DNA from: an uncultured Candidatus Saccharibacteria bacterium
Lineage (GTDB): Bacteria > Patescibacteriota > Minisyncoccia > Phycocordibacterales > Zambryskibacteraceae
Length of the DNA stretch: 25,480 bases
Assembly (NCBI GenBank): GCA_964357345.1
Contig: CAYHKS010000002.1
Coordinates: 1 to 25,480 of the forward strand
Direction: 5' to 3'
A model generated the notes under the pieces. The model made no database searches and was not told the origin of the DNA. It saw nothing but the letters and a program-made list of their open reading frames with translations. Of the stretch, positions 110 to 13,081 are shown one piece after another. A program made the translations under genes and the position numbers. The stretch's first letter is position 1, and each line of letters starts with the position of its first letter.

Positions 110-2176
110 TTATACTCCTTCGCTTTCTATTTGTTTGATGTTTGCTTCGATCACATCTTTTTGTTGCGGAACCTTTTTTGCCAAATCTCTTAGGAGAGCA
201 AGTAGAAAAGATTTTTGACCAGTTTGGTATAGGGCCGACAAGGCTCGAGGATCAGAAACTAAAACAGCTGGACTAATTTCTGATAAAAGTTTGACGGTGA
301 GATTCCTGTCTTGGGAGTAAATCGCCCCAACAAGGTAGGCCATCTTGGCGTCTCCATATTCAGGCGCTAAATCGTAAGCTGTTTTGAATTGTAAAAGAGC
401 TTCTGGTAAATTATTGTCAGTTAGAGCCAATTGTCCGAGATTAAAGTAGATCATTTGCTTCTCTGGCATTAGCTCCTTGGCATTGTTGAAGTGCCTTAAG
501 GCCTCATCCTTCCCTCCAACATTAGAGTAGAAGGTCCCGGCGACTAGCTCATAACGGGAGTCTCCAGATAATTCCTGAGTTATTGCTTCCAAACTGTTTT
601 TTGCAAATTCAAAGAAAGCATTCCTTTTGTCCATTGAAATGGTTTCATCAGAAAGAATTGTTGAGGCCGAGGAGGAAACCCATTCAACCACTTCGGGACG
701 GCCCAAGCGGGAGGAAGTATAAGCTTTTTCGAAGTATCCAATTGCCGGAGCCTTACTCCCAGTCGATTGGACTGTCTGAAGAGCCATTATAAGGTTCGTA
801 TTGGCAATCAAAGGTCTCACGTTTACAAAGTAAATAACCACAATCAATATTAGTGCCACTCCAATAGACATGGTGGTCACAATTTTCCCTGAGAAAAGCT
901 TGGGTGAAGTTACCAAATCTTTGACTGTTCTACTATGCATGTACGAGAGCAAAGAAAAGAACAGGACATAACTTATAAGATTATCGAAAACAAATATATT
1001 ATTAAAGAAATATGCAGCAATTAGACCCGTCAAAACCGAACGTTCCGTGTGAGAAAAAGAACTCCCCTTCTTCCAAATAATCCAAAGCAACACCACATAC
1101 AAAGATAGATAGGCTCCTAGACCTAATATTCCTGCAGCGACTGCCCAATCGAGAAAGATGTTGTGAGCACGATCAAACCAAGGTTCCAAGTTGAACATTT
1201 TGGCAGAGTAATGTTCTGCAAAAACATAATTGAAATTGTCCTGTCCCCAACCAAGTAAAGGTCTCTCTCCGATACCTTTCAGGGCCATCGGCCAGATGAA
1301 GGCACGGCCTTCAGTTTTCCACGCGGAGAGCGAAATGGTAGAAAAACGATTTAGAACTTGGCTATCCCTTACAAAGGAGGTATTTCTTACAGCCCAAAAT
1401 CCAACAATAAAAATTACGAGACCAATCAAGAAATAGATACTAACCTTTCTAATCTTTTGATCTTGTTTATTGATTAAACCAAGTAAGGCAACTAATAGAA
1501 AACCACCCATCAAACCAAGAATAGCTCCCCTGGTCGCAGTATAGTAAAGGATAAAAATCTGACCTAAAATAAGTGCCCCATAAGTCCATTTTAAGGACGA
1601 TGCACGACTTTTAACAAAATAGAAAATGGCCACAAAAATGTGTATCAAGAAATATAATGCGAGATATGAGGCGTTACCGATAGTGCCGTCAACTCTCGCT
1701 CCACCTTGGTGTATAGGAAATCTTGGCGAGCCTGATAACTGGAGGAGGCAATAGAAGACCATGATTGCCGAAGCAATGAGGGTTGTATTCCACCACCAAT
1801 TCCACTCTCTTTCCTTGAGAACAGATCCCATGACAACAAAAAGCGCTCCAAGGTGGAGCATTGTTATGAAACCTTCCATGCGTTCGAAATTTGACCAAAA
1901 ACTTTTCATGGGCTCTACACCAAAAAAATCTGCCAGACCTATTATGAGCAGGAAGGCTAGCACGGCATAAAGTATCGGCGAGCGTCTTAGACGAAATTCT
2001 GGGGCTAAGAGCGCCAAAATCACCCAAACAGCAAAAACTATCTCAACTATAAATCTCCAGGCAAAAGCCTTAGTGGTAATAAATGGGAAAAAAAGTGACC
2101 CCGAGACCAAGAACGGAACGAAAGGGATGGCAAACAATCCAATCAGAATTGTAGTCTTTAGTATTTGTTTATTCAT
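110..2176 (-). CDS. O-antigen ligase family (Wzy_C/WaaL-like) multi-pass membrane protein with C-terminal TPR repeats
   Basis: Many hydrophobic segments. Ligase motifs YTATRGAILG, R-x-x-IW-x-x-A-x-x-x-I-x-x-RPLLGWG-x-x-NF and HNIFLD-x6-GILG. TPR-like helices EALRHFNNAKELMPE and EALLQFKTAYDLAPEY. Start placed at MNKQ (ATG 2176) rather than the ORF-track GTG 2233, which lies inside the flippase. Confidence 0.88.
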   Translation of the reverse strand: MNKQILKTTILIGLFAIPFVPFLVSGSLFFPFITTKAFAWRFIVEIVFAVWVILALLAPEFRLRRSPILYAVLAFLLIIGLADFFGVEPMKSFWSNFERMEGFITMLHLGALFVVMGSVLKEREWNWWWNTTLIASAIMVFYCLLQLSGSPRFPIHQGGARVDGTIGNASYLALYFLIHIFVAIFYFVKSRASSLKWTYGALILGQIFILYYTATRGAILGLMGGFLLVALLGLINKQDQKIRKVSIYFLIGLVIFIVGFWAVRNTSFVRDSQVLNRFSTISLSAWKTEGRAFIWPMALKGIGERPLLGWGQDNFNYVFAEHYSAKMFNLEPWFDRAHNIFLDWAVAAGILGLGAYLSLYVVLLWIIWKKGSSFSHTERSVLTGLIAAYFFNNIFVFDNLISYVLFFSLLSYMHSRTVKDLVTSPKLFSGKIVTTMSIGVALILIVVIYFVNVRPLIANTNLIMALQTVQSTGSKAPAIGYFEKAYTSSRLGRPEVVEWVSSSASTILSDETISMDKRNAFFEFAKNSLEAITQELSGDSRYELVAGTFYSNVGGKDEALRHFNNAKELMPEKQMIYFNLGQLALTDNNLPEALLQFKTAYDLAPEYGDAKMAYLVGAIYSQDRNLTVKLLSEISPAVLVSDPRALSALYQTGQKSFLLALLRDLAKKVPQQKDVIEANIKQIESEGV

Positions 2177-2191
2177 AGTTACTTCTGTACC

Positions 2192-3475
2192 ATGATAATA
2201 CATATGCAACAGATGAGAAAGAGGGCCTACCACCTGCTCCGTGGGAGTGAGAACTTCTTCAAAACTGACATGTTATATCTTGCTAAGGGTGGGTCTTGGC
2301 TTGTCTTGGCTCAAGCGGTATCCATGCTCTCTGGTTTTTTCCTTTCCATCGCTTTTGCAAATCTCTTTGCCAAAGAGTCATTTGGTACTTATAAATTTAT
2401 TTTCTCAGTTGTTGGAATATTAGGAGCTTTTTCTCTTACAGGTCTTAGTACCTCCGTTATCCAATCAGTAGCACGTGGATTTCATAGCTCCCTTCAAAGA
2501 GGCTTTCGCATTAATTTGAAGTGGAGTCTGGGAATATTTTTAGCAGGAATTGGGTTAAGTATTTATTATTTTATAAATGACAACGCATTTTTATCATTTT
2601 CTTTTCTTATAGCGGGCGTCTTCTCTCCCGTAATAACAAGTGCTAACTTACACAGCTCATTTTTATTGGGAAAAAAAGACTTTAGAAGGAACTCTCTATT
2701 CGGTATGGTTCGTAATACTCTTCCTGCTATAGCCATGATCCTAGCTCTTTTGCTTGCTCCGAGTCTTCCCATCATCATCTCTGTTTACTTTCTTTCTGCG
2801 ACCCTTGTCTCTTTGTATCTATATCAAAGAACGATAAAAGCTTATCCAAAAATAGATATAGAGGGTGACCCAGAACTGGCTTCATATAGTGGACACTTAA
2901 GTGCCATGGATGTCATAGGTCGAGTTGCTAGCCTCCTAGATAAAATTCTCATCTTTCATTATCTCGGGGCAGCTCCTTTGGCAATTTACGCCTTCGCCAT
3001 CGCTCCTGTTGAACAACTCCAAGGAGGAAAGAAGATAATCAGTAGCATGATTCAACCCAAGCTGCCCGAGCGAACTTTTGAGGAACTGCAGAAGGCTGCT
3101 CCACGCAAGGCAATGATCCTCACCTTTTATGCCTTGGCTCTAGCTGGACTCTACGCACTTCTTGCTCCATACTTTTATAAATTCATTTTTCCTCAGTATT
3201 TGGATTCGGTCTTGTACTCCCAAATTTATTCTCTAACTCTTTTAGCTGTATCTGGAACTATTTTCAATGAAGTTCTTTTAGCCCACAGAAAAAAGAAGGA
3301 GCTCTATGTATTCCGTAGCGTTACTCCCATTGTCCAAATAATTCTTTTTGTTATACTTTTACCTCTATACGGATTAATGGGGCTTGTTATAACACACGTT
3401 ATTATAAGATCCTTCAATGCTCTCCTTGGTTACTATCTCGTCATGCATCCCTTTAAAACAGCTTCCTCAAGTTGA
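2192..3475 (+). CDS. wzx: Wzx/MOP-family oligosaccharide flippase
   Basis: About 420 aa with roughly a dozen hydrophobic segments. Typical MOP flippase motifs (F-G-x-Y-K-F-I-F-S; DKILIFHYLGAAPLAIYAFA). Start is ATG 2192 or 2204. Confidence 0.85.
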   Translation: MIIHMQQMRKRAYHLLRGSENFFKTDMLYLAKGGSWLVLAQAVSMLSGFFLSIAFANLFAKESFGTYKFIFSVVGILGAFSLTGLSTSVIQSVARGFHSSLQRGFRINLKWSLGIFLAGIGLSIYYFINDNAFLSFSFLIAGVFSPVITSANLHSSFLLGKKDFRRNSLFGMVRNTLPAIAMILALLLAPSLPIIISVYFLSATLVSLYLYQRTIKAYPKIDIEGDPELASYSGHLSAMDVIGRVASLLDKILIFHYLGAAPLAIYAFAIAPVEQLQGGKKIISSMIQPKLPERTFEELQKAAPRKAMILTFYALALAGLYALLAPYFYKFIFPQYLDSVLYSQIYSLTLLAVSGTIFNEVLLAHRKKKELYVFRSVTPIVQIILFVILLPLYGLMGLVITHVIIRSFNALLGYYLVMHPFKTASSS

Positions 3476-5157
3476 TCAACAACCCACTTGCTCCCATTTT
3501 TGTGTGGGTCACCAAAGTATTTTTTTTGAAGATTAATTAGGTCATTCAAAGACACTCTTCGCGCATTTTTGATCTTTTCAATAAGTCCGTCTGTGTCGTG
3601 AGCAAAGAACTGGCTCCCCTTCAGATTATAGTAGTCGCCCCATTTTTTTGTTTCAAAAAAAATCGGTACTCGACATTGAAATAAGGCTTCGAGAACCGCA
3701 GTACTCATTGTCCCGACTGTTACCTCATTTTGATTTATCGCCTGCTGAAGACCACTCCCCCCCTCCAAAATTGTCAGTTTAGGATGTTTGAGAATATCAG
3801 GTCGATGCTCATCCAACCAATTTCTGAAACCGTCTCTATATGGGCGAAAGACTATAGTGGTATCGATTTCCACTTCATTAAGTAGTGCCTCTAAATAAGT
3901 TATTACCTCTTCTGGAACAGCTATCTGTTCGGATATAAAAAGAACTTTGATTGGACCATCGATTGACGGGGATTTAGAGTCTTTTGTGAGTCTACCGAGT
4001 GGCCTCATCGGTCCAGAAACGAAAAGTTGTTCTGAACGATAAGCGTTGCTGTGTTGTAGATAATACTCTCTCCACCATTCACTCCATAAACCGTATCTAT
4101 CAACTGAGAGCTGTTTTTCTCCTCTAAAACCTGTCATGAAGTCGTACATCGTATAATAACGAGAATGAACTCCATGCATAATGCCAACAGTTTCAATAGA
4201 TTTCGTCTTACATCCCAGGAAAGTGTTCATATTGCGCTCCCCAGCTGCCGAAAAGAAGGCTGCTCTTACTTTTATAAGTGTTAATATCTTCCCTATAATT
4301 TTTATAGACCAAATATCACCACAAGCTGTCAGAAGATAATGCGTTGATATTCTAAACTTAAATTGCTCCCATGGTGGCTGATAACTACCAACAAAAGATA
4401 GGAATTGTTTTTTGGTTCGATTACTTTCTCCAGTTATAAAACTAAGTATCAATCCCAGATAGGATACTGGCTCCGAATAAATCACTGGGCGCATCCGTAG
4501 AAAAGCATTTTTCAATACTTTTTTCCATGACTCGAGACTTCGAACAAACTCCACAAAATCTAAGTTTTTGGAACGTAGTCCTTCATATACAAATTTCATT
4601 CTGAAATCATAATCCCGCCCTTTCTCAAGTTTATCGCCGATGAAAACCAAAATGAATGATTTTTTGACTATGAGAACTGGTAGCGATAGTAGGGTAAGCA
4701 ACATCTGAACGAAAATACCAAGAGGAAGTGATGGAAAATTAATTAACTTTGCTTTTCCTATAATCTTAATTTGACAACCACATGATTGAAGAAAATAAAT
4801 AAAAAGACTTTTGTATGGAGGATTATAAAGTGTTATTTTACTGTAAGTCGCCAGATGCTCGAGAAGTTTTCTATATTGTGTGTAAGGCAAACAGAAGTAT
4901 AAAAAAATACTGTTTTCATGCATCCACCACAATTCGTAGCCCTTATAAGTAAAATACTTCGTAATATGTTTTCCATCCGGCATCTTGAGACGGGAAAGTT
5001 CTTCAACCATGGCAGTTGCCTCATAAATACTTCCTGGTTCAACAAACTTTCTGAGTTCTTCTCCCGATAACACCACGTCATACTTACTGGAGTATAAGTG
5101 AGGTGATTCTTCCCCAAATATAACTAGGGCGCTCCCCTTTTTATCTTTTAAATCCAT
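3433..5157 (-). CDS. Uncharacterised glycan-locus protein; C-terminal half resembles GT-B sialyl/Kdo/glycerophospho-transferase-like folds
   Basis: 574 aa, no obvious TM run or signal peptide. Motif series GIMHG / YGLWSEWW / VSGPMR / VLFISEQ / VFRPY / STAVLEAL-x-x-x-VP resembles capsule-type GT-B transferases. The fold assignment is inference. Confidence 0.45.
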   Translation of the reverse strand: MDLKDKKGSALVIFGEESPHLYSSKYDVVLSGEELRKFVEPGSIYEATAMVEELSRLKMPDGKHITKYFTYKGYELWWMHENSIFLYFCLPYTQYRKLLEHLATYSKITLYNPPYKSLFIYFLQSCGCQIKIIGKAKLINFPSLPLGIFVQMLLTLLSLPVLIVKKSFILVFIGDKLEKGRDYDFRMKFVYEGLRSKNLDFVEFVRSLESWKKVLKNAFLRMRPVIYSEPVSYLGLILSFITGESNRTKKQFLSFVGSYQPPWEQFKFRISTHYLLTACGDIWSIKIIGKILTLIKVRAAFFSAAGERNMNTFLGCKTKSIETVGIMHGVHSRYYTMYDFMTGFRGEKQLSVDRYGLWSEWWREYYLQHSNAYRSEQLFVSGPMRPLGRLTKDSKSPSIDGPIKVLFISEQIAVPEEVITYLEALLNEVEIDTTIVFRPYRDGFRNWLDEHRPDILKHPKLTILEGGSGLQQAINQNEVTVGTMSTAVLEALFQCRVPIFFETKKWGDYYNLKGSQFFAHDTDGLIEKIKNARRVSLNDLINLQKKYFGDPHKNGSKWVVDQLEEAVLKGCMTR

Positions 5158-6064
5158 TGAGGATATCTATTAGATGTTTGACCGAGTTGGCGTGCACCTT
5201 CTCCCACGCTAAAAGACTTGAGTTGGAATTATGGGGAGACAGAATAACATTCGACATTTCCTTAAGTTGACTGTCATCAGGAAGCGGCTCATTTTCAAAA
5301 ACATCGAGACCTGCCCCGGCAATCTTTCTATTTTTTAACGCATCAATGAGAGCCTCCTCATCTACAATCGGTCCTCGGGCAGTATTTATAAGATAAGCCG
5401 TTGGTTTCATCTTTGAAAGAGTCTCTTTATTTATTAAGTGATAACTCGTATCATTTAAATCACAGTTTACACTTACAAAGTCAGACTCTATTAAGAGCTT
5501 TTCGAGTGAAACCATAAAATCCAAAGGAATTTCTTTAATGTCATTACCAAGCACCCTCATACCAAAAGCTTCTGCTCTTTTAGCCACTGCTCTACCAATA
5601 TTGCCCATACCGATAATTCCTAAAGTACATTCGTTCAAAGCAAGATTAAGTTTCTTCTCCCAGATACCTTTTTTCATCTTTTCGCTCAAATCAATCGTCC
5701 CTCTAGCAAAAGCTAGGATGTGACTCAGGACCGTATCTGCCACCGGTTCAGTAAAAGCGTTTGAAGTATTTTTTACTGGGATGCCTCGTCTACCAGCGGC
5801 TTCTTTATCTATAGAATCTATGCCCGTTCCCCATTTTACAATCACCTTAAGATTAGGAGCGTTCTCTAAAACTTTCTCTGTAATTTTGTCATCTCCACAA
5901 AGAATCGCATCGATATCGGTAACCAGAGGTAAGAGCTCTTCTTCTGACATTCTTTCATTAACTATGGGCACAATAACCTCAATGTCATGCTCTTTAAAAA
6001 ATGGCCTGTGACGCTCAACCACTGGCTGAAAATATGGAGCAGTAATTAGAACTTTGAAAATCAC
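5141..6064 (-). CDS. D-isomer-specific 2-hydroxyacid dehydrogenase (SerA/GhrB-like, NAD-dependent, no ACT domain)
   Basis: G-x-G-x-D (WGTGID), Rossmann GIIGMGNIG with acidic GND, and catalytic Arg/Glu/His in INTARG, LDVFENEP and SPHN. Start probably GTG 6064 (MIFKVLITAP); the track uses TTG 6085. Confidence 0.92.
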   Translation of the reverse strand: MIFKVLITAPYFQPVVERHRPFFKEHDIEVIVPIVNERMSEEELLPLVTDIDAILCGDDKITEKVLENAPNLKVIVKWGTGIDSIDKEAAGRRGIPVKNTSNAFTEPVADTVLSHILAFARGTIDLSEKMKKGIWEKKLNLALNECTLGIIGMGNIGRAVAKRAEAFGMRVLGNDIKEIPLDFMVSLEKLLIESDFVSVNCDLNDTSYHLINKETLSKMKPTAYLINTARGPIVDEEALIDALKNRKIAGAGLDVFENEPLPDDSQLKEMSNVILSPHNSNSSLLAWEKVHANSVKHLIDILNGFKR

Positions 6065-6099
6065 AATAAGCTTATACTGCCACAAAATGCTCGATTTGC

Positions 6100-6134
6100 A
6101 AAAAAACCACGCTCCGACTTAAGCTGGAGCGTGG
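6100..6134 (-). terminator. Intrinsic (Rho-independent) terminator after the radical SAM gene
   Basis: Perfect 9-bp GC-rich stem CCACGCTCC (6107-6115) / GGAGCGTGG (6126-6134) with a 10-nt loop, followed on the minus strand by T7 (6106-6100). It begins 6 nt after the 6141 stop. Confidence 0.85.
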
Positions 6135-6140
6135 GGTGTT

Positions 6141-7628
6141 TTAGAAACTGATCTTCGGTTCAGCGAAGAATGTATCCCGGTACTCCCGCTGAAGAATTTG
6201 TAGAAGTTCTCCAGCTTCTGGGGTATCCCTAGTCGCTAGGTCGATCTCCGACCATCTCGATATAGGGAACTTTACCTTGAGAGCGAAACCGAGACGAGCC
6301 TGACGAATTTCTTCCCTTGAGAACTGGGACATGGTCAGGACCGAATCCTCGGCATTGCCCGGAGCGATGAGATCCGGAGCTATGAACCCAGCCTCGACCG
6401 CCTCATCACGGGCTGGGGTGCCGTAATACGGGGCAAAGGTAAAGCAGTTGGTAGTGTCAACGTTTGGAAACTGCCGATTGAGCTCGATTGTTGCCAGAAA
6501 GATTTCCGGTGTCTCATGTGGATAACCTACAATATTGTTCGTATTATAGGTTATACCCATGGCCGCCGTAATCTCGAGAGCTTTTATCGCTTGTTCGTTT
6601 GTGAACTCTTTCTGGACAACCCTTCGGCGGAATTCCTCATCGCCATTTTCGATCCCAAATGCGACACGGTGAAGACCAACCTCTTTGAGTTTTTGGAGAC
6701 GCCAGTCCGTGATCGTCTCCACTCGAGTCTGGACCCAGAAGGGCAGCCCGACGTCTTGATAGATCTCGCAGAATTGGTCAAGCTCTGACCGTGACATCAT
6801 GAGAAAGGTGTCCGCCCAAAAGAACATGTACTCCACCTTATACACATCCTTGTAGTGCAGGATCTCTTCTCGAATGTTGACCATTGACTTCTTGCGAGAC
6901 CCGGTATTCCGAGAATTGCAGAAAGCACAATGGTAAACACATCCTCTGATCGTCTCTACTGGCGCCATCCGATAAAGTTTACCTGCCATCGGACGAACCA
7001 GTCTTTCGGAGTCGAACAGTCCAAGATCGAAGTCGGTCGGATTTTCGTTTAAGTCGGCGAGCGGGGCTACGCCGCCTTCTTTGATGACCCCGTCCTTGTC
7101 TCTGGACCAAATCCCCCGGATGCCGTCATAAGACTCTCCTCTTTCCATCTTTTGACAAAGTTCGAGCAGGGCAACCTCCCCCTCCCCCTTACAAACCAAG
7201 TCAATCTCGGGAAAGTCTAGAGCTCTCCTAGGAGCGAATGTTGCAAATGACCCGCCTAGGATCACTGGCATATCGCGAGGACTGCGATGTTTAATCCGCT
7301 GAATTACCTCAACTCCCAGAAGAAAGGTGCTCTCCGTGCAGGACAAACCAATAAGGTTTGGGCCGAAGGAATTCACTTTCTCGTTGAGATCTGCCCAGAC
7401 ATCACGATCTGTTTTCTGAAGTGTCCGGTGAGGTGACGGACGAACACCTAGTGTTGCCTCAGTCAACCTTTCGTAGTCCTTGGCCAGATCAAGGCCGTAA
7501 TCGGTGGTATCGAACACCTCCACCTGCATTCCATGATTCTTGAGGATCCGAGATAGCAAAGCTATCCCTGGGGGCACCAGTGTCTCACTACGAAAATTCG
7601 GATAGATGAAAAGAACTCGAAAGCTCAT
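6141..7628 (-). CDS. Cobalamin-binding radical SAM protein (class B methyltransferase-like)
   Basis: N-terminal B12-binding domain (VLFIYPN...PPGIALL...VILGGSFATF...VCKGEGE), CxxxCxxC motif RGCVYHCAFC, then GIENG and IVGYPHET. Start at ATG 7628 is supported by an SD. Confidence 0.92.
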   Translation of the reverse strand: MSFRVLFIYPNFRSETLVPPGIALLSRILKNHGMQVEVFDTTDYGLDLAKDYERLTEATLGVRPSPHRTLQKTDRDVWADLNEKVNSFGPNLIGLSCTESTFLLGVEVIQRIKHRSPRDMPVILGGSFATFAPRRALDFPEIDLVCKGEGEVALLELCQKMERGESYDGIRGIWSRDKDGVIKEGGVAPLADLNENPTDFDLGLFDSERLVRPMAGKLYRMAPVETIRGCVYHCAFCNSRNTGSRKKSMVNIREEILHYKDVYKVEYMFFWADTFLMMSRSELDQFCEIYQDVGLPFWVQTRVETITDWRLQKLKEVGLHRVAFGIENGDEEFRRRVVQKEFTNEQAIKALEITAAMGITYNTNNIVGYPHETPEIFLATIELNRQFPNVDTTNCFTFAPYYGTPARDEAVEAGFIAPDLIAPGNAEDSVLTMSQFSREEIRQARLGFALKVKFPISRWSEIDLATRDTPEAGELLQILQREYRDTFFAEPKISF

Positions 7629-7630
7629 AA

Positions 7631-7639
7631 CCACCTCTT
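7631..7639 (-). promoter_or_regulatory. Shine-Dalgarno site of the radical SAM gene
   Basis: Minus strand reads AAGAGGTGGTT-ATG. GAGGTG is complementary to the canonical anti-SD, and GAGG is 5 nt from the ATG. Confidence 0.7.
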
Positions 7640-7716
7640 GTCTAAGTAGTTTGTAGAACTTCAATCCGGCCCCACTTTATCATATACATAGATATATACA
7701 AAGAACCTTTTACGCC

Positions 7717-8349
7717 TTAGCTAAGATGAATTAGAATAGCCCGCGTTGGAGCGGCTTCGGAGCCAGCAATTTTCACAGGAAGACAGATAAGTTCATAAAC
7801 TCCAGATTTTACTCCAGTTAGATTTAAACTCTCTATAATACAAATACCCTTACCCAAAAGAATTTGGTGCACCTTAGCAGCTTCGTCAAATTTAGCAATC
7901 GAAAGATAATCCATTCCCACTAATTTTATCCCCTTCTTGGCAATCCACGATGCCCCGCTTTCGGTCAAACCAACATAATTTTTTTTAAATCTTTTTGTCT
8001 TCCCCCAAAGTGGAGAGTTGGATGTCCTGAATAAAATTCTCTTTACACCCTTCGGTATCGACAACTTTTCCAAATCTTTAACACCAATTTCCTTCACTTT
8101 TGGTAAGTATGCGACAAATACTGGGCCCATAAAAATATCTAGTGGTAACTTATCAATAGATTTACCTTTAGCTATAAAATGAAGCGGGGCGTCAATGTGA
8201 GTACCGATGTGAGCATTCATTTCTATATGCGTTTCATTCACCAAATTTTTCGAACCAATTTTCGATATACGCTTTATACAAAGCCCCGTGGAATTTGGCC
8301 ACAATGGTAAATTATTGCTAACTGGAACAGATATATCGATTATCTTCAT
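7717..8349 (-). CDS. Cyclase-family metal-dependent hydrolase (kynurenine formamidase/isatin hydrolase-like)
   Basis: Signature H-x-G-T-H-x-D-A-P-x-H (HIGTHIDAPLHF), plus VGMDYLSI, IIESLNL and LPVKI-x-G-x-E-A-A-P-x-RA. ATGA overlap with the upstream gene. Confidence 0.92.
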   Translation of the reverse strand: MKIIDISVPVSNNLPLWPNSTGLCIKRISKIGSKNLVNETHIEMNAHIGTHIDAPLHFIAKGKSIDKLPLDIFMGPVFVAYLPKVKEIGVKDLEKLSIPKGVKRILFRTSNSPLWGKTKRFKKNYVGLTESGASWIAKKGIKLVGMDYLSIAKFDEAAKVHQILLGKGICIIESLNLTGVKSGVYELICLPVKIAGSEAAPTRAILIHLS

Positions 8350-10193
8350 GGTTTCAGAAAAATCTTTAAATATTTCCCAGTTCTATGTAGTTCCCAGGCC
8401 TTTTTGAAGTCTTTGAGAGGCATAGCCGTCAGCATGGAATCTGGAATATCAATTTTTGGCAATAGCATCAAGGCCTGATGGAAATCTTGCGAATCTCCTC
8501 CCACAGAACCGGCAAAAACTTTTTCGTGCCCAACTAAATCTTCAAAATTGTAACTAATATCTCCGTAGGGAAAGCCGAGCAACATTATTGTGCAATCGGT
8601 ACGACTTTTTTTAACTACTTGCTCAAGAACCTCTTTGGACCCTGTTGCCTCGATAATTACATTAAATGATTCAAGATCAACGAGTGACGTAGAAATACTA
8701 CTAACCTTATCTTTCAAAAGCTTCAATCTATCGTTGCTCCTATCAAAAACACTAACCTTATAACCTTCAAGTGCAAGGACCTGTGAGCATAGGAAACCGA
8801 TTGGCCCAGCTCCTGTCACCGCAATTTTAGCTTGTGGAGTCAGCCTATTCCTTATTCTTCTTATGGCTCGTAGGATAACGGCTGTTGGCTCGGTTAGGGC
8901 GGCTTTCTTCGAGTCTAGATTGTCTGGTATGTGGTGGATAGCATCTCCGGGCATGACTATATATTTACTGTAAGCGCCATTAAAGTTAATAACTCCAACC
9001 TCTTTGCGATTAGAGCTATCGCGCGATAAGATACACTCCCCCACCACCTTTTGACCAACCTTGAAACGTTCACGAAATTTATTATTCGAACCGATTCTTA
9101 TTATTGTTGCGGAGAATTCATGCCCTGGAACAATCGGATATTTAGCCAACCCATCACGGTAATATCCTAAAGCTCCCTCAAGAATTTCTATATCCGTTCG
9201 ACACACGCCAACATAATCTACTTCAAGCATGATGTCTCCGGGCTTCATCTCTGGCAAGAGCACTTCCTCAAGTTCAGCCTTGTTCTTACCCTTGATAACT
9301 ACGGATTGGTTTTTTATCAACGATAAAATGCCAAGTCCCTCTCTGTTCAGATCTAGATTTCTATCTTTAAACCAACCCTGTCTACTCCCTTTCCATTGAT
9401 AATATCGAAAACGCAGTATCTCTTCGACTCTTTGCCAAGAGTAATTTGGGAAGGTGTGAAAAATATCGTCCGCCAAGCGAAGTGCGAGCCAAAAAACACT
9501 CAACCTAGTCTGAGGCGGATGCTTTAACCCAATTCTTACGGAAGCTATGGACTCTCGTCTGTAACGGTTGAAAACTTGATGCCACTCCTCTGTGTGGATG
9601 TGATATATAGTGGCTTTCGGTTCGTAATGAATAATATGCCCCATCTCGGCCATGTGTCGTGCCCAGTCAATGTCTTCGAGCCCAAAGAGATACTCATCAA
9701 AGTGATGACTCCTCCATAAATCCTTCCTGATGGCCGAATTTGCATTATTGGCATAATCAATAGCAGTCGTAGCATCTATTGGTTCCAAGCCGAATAGTCT
9801 ACGGAGATCCATCTTTTCTGAGAACTTCGATTGGCTTGCCCCCACCTGGCGTCCATATACCATGGCTACCTTCTCGTTTATGAAAGGTGCAATAAGATTG
9901 GAGAGCCATTTGTCGTTTACTGGCAGTACATGTGCTGAAGCGAAGACTAAATACTTACCCTTACTCTCCTCACATCCAATATTAAGAGCGTAACCAAATG
10001 TGAAGTCTCTACTCTCTATCTTTATAACCCTTACCTGGAACTCTTTTGCAATCTCGACTGTTCTATCGTTTGAGCTTGAGTCAACAATGATAACCTCATA
10101 GTCCTGATAATCTTGAGTCTTAAGAGCTCGCAGCAAGTTACCGAGATGCTTCTCTTCGTTAAGAGTCCTGATGATAATACTGGTCTCAGGCAT
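8346..10193 (-). CDS. Fusion of a GT2 glycosyltransferase (aa ~1-285) and a Zn-dependent MDR sugar/polyol dehydrogenase (aa ~294-615)
   Basis: GT2 part: SIIIRTLNEE, IIVDSSSNDRT, LEDIDW. MDR part: GVCRTD, PGHEFS, LTEP, GAGPIG. One uninterrupted frame. Confidence 0.9.
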   Translation of the reverse strand: MPETSIIIRTLNEEKHLGNLLRALKTQDYQDYEVIIVDSSSNDRTVEIAKEFQVRVIKIESRDFTFGYALNIGCEESKGKYLVFASAHVLPVNDKWLSNLIAPFINEKVAMVYGRQVGASQSKFSEKMDLRRLFGLEPIDATTAIDYANNANSAIRKDLWRSHHFDEYLFGLEDIDWARHMAEMGHIIHYEPKATIYHIHTEEWHQVFNRYRRESIASVRIGLKHPPQTRLSVFWLALRLADDIFHTFPNYSWQRVEEILRFRYYQWKGSRQGWFKDRNLDLNREGLGILSLIKNQSVVIKGKNKAELEEVLLPEMKPGDIMLEVDYVGVCRTDIEILEGALGYYRDGLAKYPIVPGHEFSATIIRIGSNNKFRERFKVGQKVVGECILSRDSSNRKEVGVINFNGAYSKYIVMPGDAIHHIPDNLDSKKAALTEPTAVILRAIRRIRNRLTPQAKIAVTGAGPIGFLCSQVLALEGYKVSVFDRSNDRLKLLKDKVSSISTSLVDLESFNVIIEATGSKEVLEQVVKKSRTDCTIMLLGFPYGDISYNFEDLVGHEKVFAGSVGGDSQDFHQALMLLPKIDIPDSMLTAMPLKDFKKAWELHRTGKYLKIFLKP

Positions 10194-10971
10194 AGTGTGC
10201 GATAAGATTATCCCCGGACATAAGCTCCTCTACTTTCTTGAGATCACTTAAAGTGTCCACAGCTTGAGTTTCAAAATATTCTGGGATCATCTTCACTTTG
10301 AAGCCGTATTCGAGTACCCGATTCATATCAATCGACTCAATAATTTCAAGTGGAGTTGGCTCAAGCTCATTGAACTTCAGAAGAAAGTCTCGAGTAAAAG
10401 GGATAACACAGACCTGTTTCCAAGTTGGCGGCATCGTGCCGTGCCACTTCTTACTTGAGGGAACGGGTTCACGAGAGAAGTACAAGGCATAGTTATTTTT
10501 ATCAGTAATCACCTTGGGACAATTTGGATCATTCCGTTCTTCAACAGTTGTAACCGGAGCCATCAAGTTTACCACTTTTATATCGGTATCTTCTAGAAGA
10601 GGTTCGACGGCCATATCTATCATTTCCGGTTTTATCATGGGTTCATCTCCCTGAATCATCACAATGATATCAACTCTTTTGCCTGTGGACTTCTCGATCT
10701 TCTTCAAGGCTTCGGCTGTTCTATCAGAAGCTCGTTCATGGGTGTTCATTGTCATTATCCATTTAGCTCCAATAGAATCAGCATATTTACCTATCTCTTC
10801 ATCACAAGTCGCTATATAGATTTCGTTCAAACTTTGACTCAACTTACTCCTGTGGTAAACATGTCCGATCATTGGCATACCTAAGATCTTTTCCAATGGC
10901 TTACCAGGGAATCTTGAGGATCCCATTCTAGCGGGAATAATGCCAACGATATTAAGATTATTTTTCTCCAT
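10186..10971 (-). CDS. kdsB: KdsB-family (CMP-Kdo synthetase-like) cytidylyltransferase, divergent substrate pocket
   Basis: IIPARMGSSRFPGKPL, QGDEP, ALYFSR-x-P-x-P and AVDT-x-x-DL. The symbol denotes family membership only; the substrate may not be Kdo. Confidence 0.88.
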   Translation of the reverse strand: MEKNNLNIVGIIPARMGSSRFPGKPLEKILGMPMIGHVYHRSKLSQSLNEIYIATCDEEIGKYADSIGAKWIMTMNTHERASDRTAEALKKIEKSTGKRVDIIVMIQGDEPMIKPEMIDMAVEPLLEDTDIKVVNLMAPVTTVEERNDPNCPKVITDKNNYALYFSREPVPSSKKWHGTMPPTWKQVCVIPFTRDFLLKFNELEPTPLEIIESIDMNRVLEYGFKVKMIPEYFETQAVDTLSDLKKVEELMSGDNLIAHYA

Positions 10972-10986: not shown

Positions 10987-11868
10987 TTATATCTCCTCGA
11001 AGTCCAGATGTTTGATTTGTTCAAATTGCTCGTGAGCACTGCCAAATTTTCTAAGAACAAACGGGTTCGGATAAAAAACTTCATCTGGAGAAAGCTCAAT
11101 AAACTTATTCTTGGCAACATCTTCCTTAACAAAGAAGGCGTCGTGACCGTGAGTATCACAAGCAACTAGGATATACTTTTTTTCTTTGGCCAATTTTGTT
11201 AAAGCAGTTAAAGAAGCACCGAAGTATAGAGGGTGATTTTGCTTTGGATTGAATCGTTGTGTAGCATCATATTTTTTAGTCAGCGGATGAAGACCTAGCG
11301 ATGCGTTGTATTCAATCACTACTACTCTAGGGTTAACCACTGTGATTGCCTCCCAAACCCAGTAATCATTTCCATCTATATCGATAGAAAGAAGATCAAT
11401 CTCCCTTCTGATGGCTCCATCGGTAATAGTTTTATTAATATTTTCTGCAGTAACGAAAGATTGTACAACTTGAACATTGAATCCATTATAGAAATCTCTG
11501 GCAGATTGAACCCATTTTTCATTAGCATCGATCATAAGGCCCTGCCAACCAAAATTCCGAGAAAGATTCGCTGTATTGCACTCTCGGCCATCTTCTATGC
11601 CCATTTCCACAAAAGTTCGATTAGTTACACCTATTTTTGAAAAAACATATGCCAAGATACCGTCACAGCCATGTTTAGAGTAAATTTTAAACTCCGCATT
11701 TCTGAAAGCAATTCTTTGACTCAAATTATCAGACATAAGATTTTGATAATGAGTGACAAACAAATTGTTCAACCTACCTTCAAGAATATTAATTTTTTCA
11801 GGATAAAAAATATCTCTAATAAAAATAAAAACTTTTGTGGGTAAGATTCTTTTAAGAAAGTTTTTCAT
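10987..11868 (-). CDS. FkbM-like SAM-dependent methyltransferase (putative sugar O-methyltransferase)
   Basis: YSKHGCDG, FVEMGIEDGRECNT, W-x-GLMID, DLLSIDIDGNDYWVW, PRVVVIEYN and GAS-x-x-AL form a pattern typical of FkbM-like glycan-locus methyltransferases. Start at MKNF (ATG 11868); the track uses TTG 11877. Confidence 0.65.
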   Translation of the reverse strand: MKNFLKRILPTKVFIFIRDIFYPEKINILEGRLNNLFVTHYQNLMSDNLSQRIAFRNAEFKIYSKHGCDGILAYVFSKIGVTNRTFVEMGIEDGRECNTANLSRNFGWQGLMIDANEKWVQSARDFYNGFNVQVVQSFVTAENINKTITDGAIRREIDLLSIDIDGNDYWVWEAITVVNPRVVVIEYNASLGLHPLTKKYDATQRFNPKQNHPLYFGASLTALTKLAKEKKYILVACDTHGHDAFFVKEDVAKNKFIELSPDEVFYPNPFVLRKFGSAHEQFEQIKHLDFEEI

Positions 11869-13081
11869 ATATAGCAATGTGTTGAACTACTTTATCCTCC
11901 AGATTGAATTCTGATTTTACCCTTTCTTGCCCGGCTTTACCAAGCTTTGATGCCTGCTGGGGATTTTTTAATAAAGTAACAATTTTTTCTGCCATTTCCT
12001 TAGTCTTGAGGGGATTAACAACGTATCCAGTAATTCCATCCAAAATGAGTTCTCGGGCTCCTCCATAGGGAGTCCCCACTACTGGTTTTCCTGCTGCCAT
12101 AGCAGAGAGCACGGTTCTAGGGAAGGCATCAAAGCAGACAGAAGGAACCAACACAACATCAGAAGAAGCGTAGATGTATTTCATCTCAGCTCTTCCGATC
12201 CAACCAGCAAAAAGAAGTTTGTCCTCTATGCCCATTTTGCGGGCCTCGTCTTTCATCTTTTCTGAATATGCATCAGTTTTACCTGCAATCAAAAGTACCA
12301 ACTCTGGTATCTCTTTAGAAATTTTGTCTATAGTCTCTAGAACATATTTACCGCCCTTAGCTTCGCTTATTCGTCCACTAAACAAAACTACTTTTTTACC
12401 GACCAAGCCATGTTTAGCTCTAAACTGTTCGGCATCCTCATTTGAAACATGTCGTTCCGAGACGGATGAGCCTGTATACATAACTTCTACATTCTTGATA
12501 CCGTTTTGCTCAAGAGCAATTCTTAAGGCATTACTGACAGCAAGCAATTTATCTGCATACCCAAGATATTTCCTTATAATAAAATTCCTGAAGGGATTCC
12601 AACTCTTTTTAGCTTGTTTAAGATTATCCAACCAGGTGAGACGACAATCAAAATTTTCGAGATAACGCTTTGTGTTCAATTTCCCATAACTAAATGTCAT
12701 CGCATCACGAGCGGTAAACACAACTACTTTAGTATATTTCTTAGAGAGTTTGATGGAATGATATGACAAATAGAGATGCACATTGTTCACGTGTACTACA
12801 TCAGGTTTTAGTTTCTTAAGAATCTCCTCAAGTTTTTTGATTACAGGTCTGTTATACAAACTAATGTATGACCGCCATCTGGCAGGATAATCGCTTGCGA
12901 TTTTCCAAACCGTAAGCCCTTGATAATCCGACTGCCCCGCCTCTGCTTCCTCACGACAAGTTGTTACAACAAAGACTTCATGTCCTGCCTTTTTCATTCC
13001 CAGAGCCAGGTCACAGGTAGAAATTCCTGCTCCTCCGAAGCTCTGTGGCGGAAAATCATCGGCAAGAAACAAGATTTTCAT
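11852..13081 (-). CDS. GT4 family glycosyltransferase
   Basis: MKILF...FPPQSFGGA, GHEVFV, PDVVHVNN, FSGRISEAKG, and PSVCFDAFPRTVLSAMAAGKPVV (D/S replace the usual E-x7-E). Confidence 0.92.
   Translation of the reverse strand: MKILFLADDFPPQSFGGAGISTCDLALGMKKAGHEVFVVTTCREEAEAGQSDYQGLTVWKIASDYPARWRSYISLYNRPVIKKLEEILKKLKPDVVHVNNVHLYLSYHSIKLSKKYTKVVVFTARDAMTFSYGKLNTKRYLENFDCRLTWLDNLKQAKKSWNPFRNFIIRKYLGYADKLLAVSNALRIALEQNGIKNVEVMYTGSSVSERHVSNEDAEQFRAKHGLVGKKVVLFSGRISEAKGGKYVLETIDKISKEIPELVLLIAGKTDAYSEKMKDEARKMGIEDKLLFAGWIGRAEMKYIYASSDVVLVPSVCFDAFPRTVLSAMAAGKPVVGTPYGGARELILDGITGYVVNPLKTKEMAEKIVTLLKNPQQASKLGKAGQERVKSEFNLEDKVVQHIAIYEKLS

What the first reader, a model, noticed from the sequence alone, without database searches (positions are those of the whole stretch)
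3433..10971. Candidate synthase-independent pathway to a novel CMP-activated keto-sugar acid
Seen: a KdsB-family cytidylyltransferase is coupled to a GT2/Zn sugar-dehydrogenase fusion and a cyclase-family hydrolase. These are followed, past the radical SAM gene, by a D-2-hydroxyacid dehydrogenase coupled to an orphan GT-B-like protein. No KdsA, KdsC, KdsD or NeuB-type gene is in the window. Known: KdsB enzymes activate the C2 hydroxyl of 2-keto (ulosonic) acids; MDR enzymes include aldose and polyol dehydrogenases; cyclase-family proteins hydrolyse amides or cyclic acyl bonds; D-2-hydroxyacid dehydrogenases include 2-ketogluconate reductases. Inference: the set could run aldose -> aldonolactone (MDR) -> aldonate (cyclase as lactonase) -> 2-keto-aldonate (2-HADH) -> CMP-ulosonate (KdsB-like) -> glycan (574-aa transferase). 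That would make an ulosonate without PEP condensation, which would suit a metabolically reduced organism. Alternatively, the enzymes tailor a scavenged Kdo.
Basis: partly seen in the sequence, partly recalled or inferred. Interest (0 to 1): 0.82.

Follow-up and report, generated by a model that had tools for sequence, protein, structure and literature searches.

The report
Aldolase-free CMP acidic-sugar gene cassette
A tiny-genome bacterium carries a conserved gene set that most likely makes, CMP-activates and attaches an unknown acidic keto-sugar to its surface without any known enzyme that normally builds such sugars, which points to an undescribed biosynthetic route.

Summary
The 0.54-Mb, 92%-complete genome shows no KdsA, KdsC, SIS/KdsD, NeuB, HpcH, NanA-type or KDPG-type aldolase, and no WaaA.

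The set is not a chance neighbourhood. KdsB-like + GT2::Zn-dehydrogenase fusion + 2-hydroxyacid dehydrogenase recur together in dozens of loci, sometimes as a single KdsB::GT2::dehydrogenase protein.

New here: this KdsB subgroup (58-80% identical across Bacteria and Archaea) is usually fed by an HpcH aldolase module. That module and the GT2::dehydrogenase module never co-occur (0 of 124 genes), and they swap at least five times on the KdsB tree, so they look interchangeable.

The cyclase-fold hydrolase is dispensable. In three independent loci (four counting a duplicate record) an SMP-30/gluconolactonase-family protein sits in its place, which supports a lactonase role. The 574-aa orphan has a GT-B fold and is remotely homologous to TIGR04326.

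The scan has followed up the aldolase-type cassette several times on other DNA. This aldolase-free variant had only been noted. I found no paper describing either.

The parts
10186..10971 (-). KdsB-like CTP:ulosonate cytidylyltransferase, NF009905/PRK13368 subgroup. Subgroup motifs are HERASDR, KQVC[IV][IM]PF and ESIDMNR. The CTP/Mg motifs PAR..S.R.PGK, QGDEP and VDT are intact.
8346..10193 (-). Fusion of a GT2-like domain and an NAD-type Zn medium-chain dehydrogenase. In the GT2-like domain (residues 1 to about 290) the DXD motif is replaced by an invariant S-A-H, and the linker is aromatic/basic. The dehydrogenase keeps the Cys-His-Glu Zn ligands but lacks the structural-Zn loop.
7717..8349 (-). 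Cyclase-fold (KynB-like) metal hydrolase with the HxGTHxDxPxH motif intact. Proposed lactonase. It is dispensable and positionally interchangeable with an SGL-family protein in relatives.
6141..7664 (-). B12-binding radical SAM enzyme, probably a C-methyltransferase. An accessory member: relatives carry it downstream of the cassette, whereas here it is inserted between the hydrolase and the 2-HADH, in a GC-richer stretch.
5141..6085 (-). NAD-type D-2-hydroxyacid dehydrogenase (VLGND; Arg/Glu/His triad), closest to the PGDH-like 1wwk and to glyoxylate reductases. It is a dedicated paralog; a second 2-HADH lies on contig C5. The real start may lie about 8 codons downstream of the TTG.
3433..5157 (-). 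574-aa GT-B-fold transferase with no Pfam family. Its C-terminal half is homologous to the TIGR04326 (LIC13510) family, and more weakly to the LIC12162 family. ESM features resemble TagF/KpsC-type CMP/CDP-donor transferases.
10987..11877 (-). FkbM-like methyltransferase, a conserved upstream neighbour in CPR-type loci.
11852..13081 (-). GT4 glycosyltransferase, conserved directly upstream of the KdsB-like gene in CPR-type loci.
2165..3475 (+). Wzx-type flippase convergent on the orphan gene. Conserved in CPR-type loci: 8/11 and 14/33.
21062..22186 (-). GT9 (heptosyltransferase-family) gene, recurrent in CPR-type loci (7/11 and 8/33). GT9 enzymes of LPS cores use Kdo as acceptor (established knowledge).

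Best explanation
The genes form a conserved surface-glycan cassette that makes, CMP-activates and transfers an acidic 2-keto (ulosonic-type) sugar that is not Kdo.

Shown:
- The gene set, its conservation and its fusions.
- The KdsB-like enzyme has intact CTP/Mg motifs but altered sugar-side segments.
- All known C-C-forming ulosonate synthase/aldolase families searched for were not found.
- The GT2::MDR module and the HpcH aldolase module are mutually exclusive.

Inferred mechanism:
1. An oxidative feeder module replaces the aldolase module of sister lineages.
2. A sugar, possibly released from or held by the GT2-like domain, is oxidised by the NAD/Zn dehydrogenase.
3. The resulting lactone is opened by the cyclase-fold hydrolase, or spontaneously.
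4. The NAD-dependent 2-hydroxyacid dehydrogenase oxidises C2 of the aldonate to a 2-keto acid.
5. The KdsB-like enzyme joins its anomeric hydroxyl to CMP.
6. The GT-B orphan (TIGR04326-like), or the GT2-like domain itself, transfers the residue to a lipid-linked glycan that is methylated and exported through Wzx/Wzy.
For: - Domains and motifs.
- Own genome has no PF00793, PF03102, PF01380, PF03328, PF00701, PF01081, TIGR01670 or PF04413, and no ILVD/EDD dehydratase. Five other CPR carriers have no HpcH, and four of the five have no KdsA family.
- Conserved co-occurrence from two independent anchors.
- KdsB::GT2::MDR single proteins occur in at least 4 assemblies.
- HpcH and GT2::MDR never co-occur near a KdsB-like gene (0 of 124). 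They switch at least 5 times on the KdsB tree, with GT2::MDR-linked genes in at least 4 well-supported clades.
- An SGL-family protein sits in the cyclase's position in L004/5, L095 and L102. The hydrolase is missing in about half of the loci.
- NAD-type Asp in both dehydrogenases.
- The orphan has a GT-B fold and matches TIGR04326 by hhalign at 98%. An orphan-type gene also serves an HpcH-type locus, L060.
- Precedent for a non-3-deoxy 2-hexulosonic acid in a glycan: the E. coli K3 capsule (cited in PMC10433991 and bioRxiv 10.1101/2025.01.29.635457).
Against: - No enzyme here has been assayed and the sugar is unknown.
- The MDR domain is closest to polyol/threonine dehydrogenases; glucose and arabinose 1-dehydrogenases score much lower.
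- NAD-linked oxidation of a 2-hydroxy acid is thermodynamically uphill and would need pulling by CMP activation.
- The role of the GT2-like domain is guessed.
- A pyruvate-donor HpcH module would give a 3-deoxy acid, whereas the oxidative route would not. 'Same product' therefore needs a further assumption, such as a hydroxypyruvate donor. HpcH aldolases are known to accept hydroxypyruvate (references in PMC7610986), but this was not tested for these proteins.
- The 2-HADH and cyclase of the two cassette types are only distant paralogs (100-190 and about 50 bits).
- The genome is 91.65% complete in 62 contigs, so a missing synthase cannot be excluded absolutely.
Confidence: 0.45

Rival explanations
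1. Synthetase-transferase reading. The KdsB-like enzyme activates an acid sugar whose carbon skeleton comes from elsewhere (host, medium or an unrecognised enzyme). The GT2-like domain is the CMP-sugar transferase, channelled by fusion because CMP-ulosonates are labile. The MDR, 2-HADH and hydrolase tailor the sugar or the acceptor instead of building the keto acid.
For: KdsB::GT2::MDR fusions. The DXD motif is replaced by an invariant S-A-H, with conserved His/Arg residues, in all 67 fusions, as might suit a monophosphate donor. The aromatic/basic linker suggests a membrane interface. The orphan is absent from the 40-47% group although the trio persists. The MDR resembles secondary-alcohol dehydrogenases.
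Against: No GT2-family enzyme is known to use CMP donors (my knowledge). Sister KdsB lineages carry a dedicated aldolase module in exactly the complementary distribution, which argues that GT2::MDR supplies the substrate. The swap between SGL-family protein and cyclase points to a lactone intermediate.
Confidence: 0.2
2. Salvage of Kdo. The organism scavenges Kdo or a Kdo-like acid from a host, and the KdsB homolog simply reactivates it.
For: CPR bacteria are reduced and often epibiotic (PMC11665869, abstract). NF009905 and NF003952 name the protein a CMP-Kdo synthetase. A GT9 gene lies in the locus.
Against: TIGR00466 scores 154.2 against a cut-off of 155.2. Canonical KdsBs are at most 38% identical, while subgroup members are at least 58% identical across domains. 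The segments that differ lie on the sugar side. The same enzyme lineage is tied to de novo modules in organisms of many phyla, including archaea and monoderms without LPS. No WaaA was found.
Confidence: 0.1
3. Side-chain reading. The 2-HADH and hydrolase make a small hydroxy acid (glycerate-type) that decorates another sugar, and the cassette modifies nonulosonic or other residues instead of making a new monosaccharide.
For: The 2-HADH is PGDH/glyoxylate-reductase-like. The trio and the HpcH cassette often sit inside NeuB/LegC/PseF loci. Glyceroyl-modified CMP-nonulosonates exist in C. jejuni (bioRxiv 10.64898/2026.04.20.719630). The ESM Atlas names the GT2 domain's nearest cluster 'glucosyl-3-phosphoglycerate synthase family' (an automatic name).
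Against: The window's genome has no NeuB and only one CTP_transf_3 gene. A KdsB-type enzyme gives a useful donor only if the activated hydroxyl is anomeric (chemical reasoning). The cassette always has its own cytidylyltransferase.
Confidence: 0.1
4. Teichoic-acid-like reading (TarI/TarJ/TarL analogy). The MDR reduces a ketose phosphate to an alditol phosphate, the cytidylyltransferase makes a CDP-alditol, and the TagF-like orphan transfers the alditol phosphate.
For: The same three protein classes as TarJ (MDR), TarI (cytidylyltransferase) and TarL (TagF-like). The MDR's closest relatives include ketose reductase and sorbitol dehydrogenase. ESM features of the orphan resemble PF04464.
Against: The cytidylyltransferase belongs to the KdsB family, not the IspD/TarI family. 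The Asp at the end of beta2 predicts NAD, not the NADPH used by TarJ. Sister lineages use a 2-keto-acid aldolase. No sugar kinase is present. The orphan gives no PF04464 hit even at E = 5.
Confidence: 0.07

Closest known systems
Kdo pathway (KdsD, KdsA, KdsC, KdsB/KpsU; transferases WaaA, KpsC/KpsS, WbbB)
   Same: A CTP_transf_3 cytidylyltransferase with the KdsB CTP/Mg motifs; about 38% identical to E. coli KpsU (1gq9). The donor is presumably a labile CMP-beta-ulosonate. A GT9 gene lies in the locus, as in LPS inner cores.
   Different: No KdsA, KdsC, KdsD or WaaA in the genome. The sugar-side segments differ (KQVC.., IDMNR). The organism has no LPS context. The precursor genes are two dehydrogenases and a hydrolase.
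HpcH-aldolase / KdsB-like cassette
   Same: The same KdsB-like lineage (58-66% identity; the CPR clade is nested inside it). A 2-HADH and a cyclase-fold hydrolase at family level. FkbM or other methyltransferases. A TIGR04326-type GT-B transferase.
   Different: No HpcH aldolase, HAD phosphatase or SDR. A GT2::MDR fusion stands in their place. The 2-HADH and hydrolase are different paralog lineages.
Nonulosonic acid pathways (NeuC/NeuB/NeuA; Pse and Leg pathways)
   Same: The logic of free sugar, then keto acid, then CMP-sugar, then transfer. The trio often lies inside Leg-type loci in other organisms. In those pathways a glycosyltransferase-fold enzyme (PseG, NeuC) releases the free sugar from an NDP-sugar, which is a possible analogy for the GT2-like domain.
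   Different: No PEP-condensing NeuB-type synthase. The cytidylyltransferase is KdsB-type, not NeuA/PseF-type.
Oxidative non-phosphorylative sugar-acid routes (MDR glucose dehydrogenase, SMP-30/gluconolactonase, 2-ketogluconate reductase GhrB/TkrA)
   Same: The same three enzyme classes in the same formal order. An SGL-family protein really does replace the cyclase in some loci.
   Different: Those routes are catabolic and their reductases run towards the hydroxy acid. Here the MDR is closer to polyol dehydrogenases, and the context is glycan biosynthesis with CMP activation.
E. coli K3 capsule side branch, 4-deoxy-2-hexulosonic acid (Dengler et al. 1988, as cited in PMC10433991)
   Same: Shows that 2-ulosonic acids that are not 3-deoxy occur as glycan residues.
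   Different: Its biosynthetic genes were not examined here. No member of this KdsB subgroup was found on plasmids, including E. coli plasmids.
CDP-ribitol / wall teichoic acid system TarI-TarJ-TarL
   Same: Cytidylyltransferase + MDR + TagF-like GT-B in one locus.
   Different: A different cytidylyltransferase family, an NAD rather than NADPH signature, no PF04464 match, and linkage to keto-acid enzymes.

Membership tests
CMP-Kdo synthetase (KdsB/KpsU, EC 2.7.7.38) | CTP_transf_3 fold and KdsB-type HMM match | tested here: met
   PF02348 at 156 bits; NF009905 at 297.5 against a cut-off of 255; NF003952 at 262.9 against 193; 1gq9 at 4.9e-39.
CMP-Kdo synthetase (KdsB/KpsU, EC 2.7.7.38) | Score above the equivalog model TIGR00466 | tested here: not met
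   154.2 bits against a cut-off of 155.2. A Syntrophomonas member of the subgroup passes at 168.6, so this test is borderline.
CMP-Kdo synthetase (KdsB/KpsU, EC 2.7.7.38) | CTP/Mg motifs (P-loop-like PAR..S.R.PGK, QGDEP, VDT) | tested here: met
   Invariant in 30 subgroup members and aligned to KpsU.
CMP-Kdo synthetase (KdsB/KpsU, EC 2.7.7.38) | Canonical sugar-side segments (KHVGIYAY, ESLEQLR in KpsU) | tested here: not met
   They read KQVCVIPF and ESIDMNR, and these are invariant within the subgroup. That these segments contact Kdo is recalled knowledge, not tested here.
CMP-Kdo synthetase (KdsB/KpsU, EC 2.7.7.38) | Genomic partners KdsA, KdsC, KdsD and a Kdo transferase | tested here: not met
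   None found in the 91.65%-complete genome.
CMP-Kdo synthetase (KdsB/KpsU, EC 2.7.7.38) | Kdo-dependent PPi release | not testable with these tools
   Needs an enzyme assay.
HpcH-aldolase/KdsB-like cassette (undescribed) | KdsB-like gene of the NF009905 clade | tested here: met
   The window's gene lies in a 30-row clade (98% support) nested in the HpcH-dominated clade.
HpcH-aldolase/KdsB-like cassette (undescribed) | Adjacent HpcH/HpaI aldolase | tested here: not met
   Absent from the window, the genome and 5 other carriers. 0 of 124 KdsB-like genes have both HpcH and GT2::MDR nearby.
HpcH-aldolase/KdsB-like cassette (undescribed) | TIGR04326-type transferase | tested here: inconclusive
   No direct HMM hit. 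The profile-profile match is 98% probability, E = 2.5e-13, over the C-terminal half.
Zn medium-chain dehydrogenase, aldose 1-dehydrogenase type | Catalytic Zn ligands and a nucleotide site | tested here: met
   Cys331/His358/Glu359/Glu435, GxGxxG and Asp484 are conserved in 67 fusions.
Zn medium-chain dehydrogenase, aldose 1-dehydrogenase type | Closest relatives are aldose 1-dehydrogenases | tested here: not met
   The best matches are iditol/sorbitol/threonine/butanediol dehydrogenases (57-75 bits). Glucose and arabinose 1-dehydrogenases score 36-39 bits. The Foldseek top 50 contains no aldose 1-dehydrogenase. PF16912 does pass its cut-off (50.1 against 34.9).
GT2 inverting glycosyltransferase | PF00535 match | tested here: met
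   90.6 bits.
GT2 inverting glycosyltransferase | DXD metal/diphosphate motif | tested here: not met
   The position reads S-A-H, invariant or nearly so in 67 fusions of 37-100% identity.
Kynurenine formamidase (KynB) | HxGTHxDxPxH metal motif | tested here: met
   HIGTHIDAPLH; 4cz1 at 2e-32.
Kynurenine formamidase (KynB) | Equivalog score TIGR03035 | tested here: not met
   142.8 bits against a cut-off of 223. The context is glycan biosynthesis, not tryptophan catabolism.
TagF/KpsC/LIC12162-type GT-B transferases | GT-B fold | tested here: met
   AF2 model with pLDDT 88.6. Foldseek hits are NeuC, UDP-GlcNAc 2-epimerases, GT4s and MurG, with E down to 5e-9. ESM Atlas structural neighbours carry PF04464/PF05159/PF27859.
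TagF/KpsC/LIC12162-type GT-B transferases | Family HMM match (PF04464, PF05159, PF27859, TIGR04331) | tested here: not met
   No hit even at E = 5 for 11 members. hhalign to a LIC12162 alignment gives 90%.
TarI/TarJ/TarL CDP-alditol system | IspD-type cytidylyltransferase and NADPH-dependent reductase | tested here: not met
   KdsB-type enzyme; NAD-type Asp.

The most novel reading that the evidence does not exclude
This would be a third general way of making ulosonic acids, after PEP-dependent synthases and pyruvate-type aldolases. A condensation-free, purely oxidative route (sugar, lactone, aldonate, 2-keto-aldonate) would feed a KdsB-like enzyme and give a CMP-activated 2-ulosonic acid that is not 3-deoxy. 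The module would be evolutionarily interchangeable with an HpcH aldolase module, which would then use hydroxypyruvate as donor, and in some lineages it is fused into one synthetase-GT2-dehydrogenase protein.
Probability: 0.3. Interest if true: 0.85.

Novelty: new variant of a known kind. Interest (0 to 1): 0.68.

Why it matters
CMP-activated keto-acid sugars such as Kdo and the sialic, pseudaminic and legionaminic acids are key surface determinants. All known routes to them build the carbon chain with a PEP-dependent synthase.

This KdsB subgroup occurs in hundreds of bacterial and archaeal species, including organisms without LPS. It is served by two mutually exclusive and uncharacterised feeder modules. 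Identifying its product would add a new monosaccharide class, or a new route, to prokaryotic glycobiology. It would correct the widespread 'CMP-Kdo synthetase' annotation. It would also explain what ultra-small CPR bacteria and DPANN archaea display on the surface they use to contact hosts.

Two cultured carriers of the sister cassette (Syntrophomonas wolfei subsp. methylbutyratica JCM 14075 and Daejeonella sp. H1SJ63) make the question directly testable.

Tried and rejected
- A single-protein pattern scan of genome contigs found nothing. The alignment-based scan worked.
- Sampling 300 genomes of the phylum gave only one other carrier. Phylum-wide co-occurrence statistics were therefore dropped in favour of neighbourhood analysis.
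- A plasmid protein search gave only canonical KdsBs at 38% identity or less.
- Sequence search of the PDB, Pfam, NCBIfam and a relaxed Pfam scan gave nothing for the orphan.
- The Foldseek search of the full GT2::MDR model was dominated by the MDR domain, so it says nothing about the GT2-like domain.
- The KdsB paper I read (PMC3149649) does not list Kdo-contacting residues, so the pocket comparison rests on alignment differences only.
- Chance adjacency is rejected by the conservation and the fusions.
- An aldonate-dehydratase route to a 3-deoxy acid is rejected: there is no ILVD/EDD match and only a sub-threshold enolase-like MR_MLE match.
- The radical SAM gene as a core member is rejected: its position varies and it is often absent.
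- Literature searches found no description of either cassette.

Full report
**Observation.**
The window is one long minus-strand glycan locus of about 40% GC.
- a KdsB-family cytidylyltransferase (PF02348 at 156 bits; NF009905 at 297.5 against a cut-off of 255);
- a 615-aa fusion of a GT2 domain and a Zn medium-chain dehydrogenase;
- a cyclase-family hydrolase;
- a B12-binding radical SAM enzyme;
- a D-2-hydroxyacid dehydrogenase;
- a 574-aa protein without any family match.

The neighbouring genes overlap by 8, 4 and 17 nt. The rest of the window encodes Wzy_C-TPR, Wzx, GT4, GT2, GT9, GtrA-like and many methyltransferase genes. No KdsA, KdsC, KdsD or NeuB homolog is in the window.

**The genome.**
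The window is contig C2 of a 539,764-bp assembly in 62 contigs, 91.65% complete. The nearest homologs of its genes are named Zambryski-, Taylor- and Nealsonbacteria, which are CPR/Patescibacteria.

Whole-genome family searches found none of the following:
- KdsA/DAHP synthase, NeuB or SIS domain;
- HpcH/HpaI aldolase;
- DHDPS/NanA-type or KDPG-type aldolase;
- KdsC or WaaA;
- ILVD/EDD dehydratase.

There is only one sub-threshold MR_MLE match, in an enolase-sized ORF. The KdsB-like gene is the only CTP_transf_3 gene. A second 2-HADH paralog lies on contig C5, so the cassette's enzyme is a dedicated copy. Five other CPR carriers also lack HpcH, and four of them lack the KdsA family.

**The cytidylyltransferase is a distinct subgroup.**
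It is about 38% identical to E. coli KpsU and at most 38% identical to any plasmid-borne KdsB. By contrast, it is 58-80% identical to a very large set of proteins from CPR bacteria and from Chloroflexota, Planctomycetota, Nitrospirota, Bacteroidota, Campylobacterota, Bacillota, Thermodesulfobacteriota, Methanobacteriota, Thermoplasmatota, Hadarchaeota and Woesearchaeota.

Within the subgroup the CTP/Mg motifs are invariant, and so are segments that differ from canonical KdsB: HERASDR, KQVC[IV][IM]PF and ESIDMNR. It misses the TIGR00466 equivalog cut-off by one bit.

**Two mutually exclusive gene contexts.**
I clustered the ORFs of 86 KdsB-anchored loci and named the clusters with Pfam/NCBIfam.

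In 57 loci the gene directly follows an HpcH/HpaI aldolase. It is accompanied by a 2-HADH, an SDR 'epimerase', a cyclase-fold protein, a HAD phosphatase, methyl- or acetyltransferases and a roughly 600-aa TIGR04326 (LIC13510-family) protein, often beside NeuB/NeuA-type genes.

In 14 loci, nearly all CPR, there is no aldolase, HAD or SDR. Instead the order is KdsB-like, GT2::MDR, then cyclase (or an SGL protein, or nothing), then 2-HADH, then the orphan.

An independent scan anchored on GT2::MDR gave the same picture:
- Close relatives with enough flank have KdsB 10/10 (one of them fused), 2-HADH 9/10, orphan 10/10 and cyclase 5/10.
- Relatives at 40-47% identity keep a tight KdsB, 2-HADH, GT2::MDR trio in 8/10. 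They have no orphan, and they lie inside legionaminic-type loci with LegC, NeuB, a PseF-like gene, a LIC12162 transferase and an ABC exporter.
- None of these 80 loci has an HpcH gene.

Of 124 KdsB-like genes, 59 have HpcH nearby, 52 have GT2::MDR nearby and none has both. On a KdsB tree, GT2::MDR-linked genes fall in at least four well-supported clades. The CPR clade that holds the window (98% support) is nested inside the HpcH-dominated clade, and at least five switches are needed. I read this as non-orthologous displacement: two feeder modules for one activating enzyme.

**Fusions.**
A single KdsB::GT2::MDR protein of 863-865 aa occurs in several assemblies (L048, L089, L095, P0131, P0139). 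A weak CTP_transf_3-like domain is fused to the 2-HADH in L030, L060 and L069. These fusions tie the dehydrogenases to the activation step.

**The individual enzymes.**
- The MDR domain keeps the catalytic Zn ligands and an Asp that predicts NAD. It lacks the structural-Zn loop, which is retained in L011 and L050.
- Its nearest relatives by sequence and by fold are iditol/sorbitol, threonine, butanediol and DHPS dehydrogenases. Glucose and arabinose 1-dehydrogenases score far lower.
- The GT2-like domain has S-A-H where GT2 enzymes have DXD. S-A-H, E173-D174, H198, H200, R210 and R213 are invariant or nearly so in 67 fusions of 37-100% identity, so it is a functional but atypical domain.
- The 2-HADH has the NAD-type VLGND motif and the Arg/Glu/His triad, and is closest to the PGDH-like 1wwk.
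- The hydrolase has the complete KynB metal motif.
- In L004/L005, L095 and L102 a PF08450 SMP-30/gluconolactonase-family protein (270 bits in L004) sits directly after GT2::MDR, where the cyclase normally is. In other loci nothing is there.
- The orphan's AF2 model (pLDDT 88.6) is a GT-B fold. Its ESM Atlas neighbours carry TagF, Capsule_synth and LIC12162 domains. Its C-terminal half matches the TIGR04326 alignment at 98% probability. An orphan-type gene serves an HpcH-type locus in L060.

**Interpretation.**
The general claim is well supported by comparative evidence: a non-Kdo CMP-activated keto-acid sugar, made here without any known condensing enzyme.

It gains from the swap between cyclase and SGL-family protein, from the dispensability of the hydrolase, and from the two NAD-type sites. 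It is weakened by the polyol-type affinities of the MDR, and it gives no role to the GT2-like domain.

Two roles for that domain fit the data, and I cannot separate them:
- It releases a free sugar from an NDP-sugar, as the glycosyltransferase-fold enzymes PseG and NeuC do in nonulosonic acid pathways (my knowledge).
- It transfers the labile CMP-sugar.

If both feeder modules give the same product, the aldolase module cannot give a 3-deoxy acid. It would have to use hydroxypyruvate as donor. This would also explain its PGDH-like 2-HADH and its HAD phosphatase. HpcH-family aldolases are known to accept hydroxypyruvate (De Berardinis 2017 and Marsden 2019, as cited in PMC7610986). This is inference only. 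A 2-hexulosonic acid that is not 3-deoxy is known in the E. coli K3 capsule.

**Prior knowledge.**
Seven literature searches found no description of either cassette.

Earlier notes of this scan describe the aldolase-type cassette on other genomes. They reach the same general reading, and one calls the aldolase dispensable. GT2::MDR fusions had been noted but never followed up. I treated these notes as leads and re-derived the neighbourhood evidence here.

**Verdict.**
The feature is real and conserved: a new, aldolase-free variant of an uncharacterised CMP-acid-sugar system. The chemistry is unproven. My confidence is 0.45 for the oxidative-feeder mechanism as stated, and higher, about 0.65, for the weaker claim that a non-Kdo CMP-activated acid sugar is made without a known synthase.

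Noticed in passing
window 6141-7664: The B12-radical SAM gene sits in a GC-richer stretch (0.46-0.49 against about 0.40) between the hydrolase and the 2-HADH. In related CPR loci its ortholog (700-855 bits) lies downstream of the orphan/Wzx pair, so it has moved into the cassette here.
   Followed up: partly
L048:1754-4348, L089, L095; proteins P0131, P0139: Single 863-865-aa proteins join the KdsB-like, GT2-like and MDR domains in that order. They were seen in several independent assemblies.
   Followed up: partly
L030:12384-14159, L060:11683-13452, L069:10777-12555: Proteins of about 590 aa with a weak CTP_transf_3-like N-terminal domain fused to the 2-HADH, in HpcH-type loci that have no separate cyclase gene. 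In L071 the 2-HADH carries a C-terminal SPASM domain instead.
   Followed up: no
L055:16435-17181, L069 (about 15406): HpcH-type loci with a second KdsB-like paralog next to the TIGR04326 gene. These paralogs group with the deep clade of GT2::MDR-linked enzymes, not with the first copy.
   Followed up: no
L004:14735-16313, L018, L023 (cluster c48): Small NTF2-like (DUF4440/SnoaL_3) genes lie between the hydrolase and the 2-HADH in some CPR-type loci. This could be an isomerase or dehydratase step that is absent from the window.
   Followed up: no
window 21062-22186: The GT9 (heptosyltransferase-family) gene recurs in CPR-type loci (7/11 and 8/33), although these organisms have no LPS. It may glycosylate the ulosonate residue, as WaaC does with Kdo.
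   Followed up: partly
G000 contig C5:5455-6348: A second 2-hydroxyacid dehydrogenase (37% identical to the cassette's), close to an enolase-like ORF. It is probably the housekeeping copy.
   Followed up: no
window 5141-6085: The listed TTG start gives 314 aa, but orthologs are 304-310 aa and begin near 'KVLIT'. The true start is probably about 8 codons downstream.
   Followed up: no
L150-L159, L162, L166, L167: The most distant GT2::MDR fusions (37-39% identity, with all key residues conserved) have no KdsB-like or 2-HADH gene within the flanks held. The fusion may therefore also work in another context.
   Followed up: no
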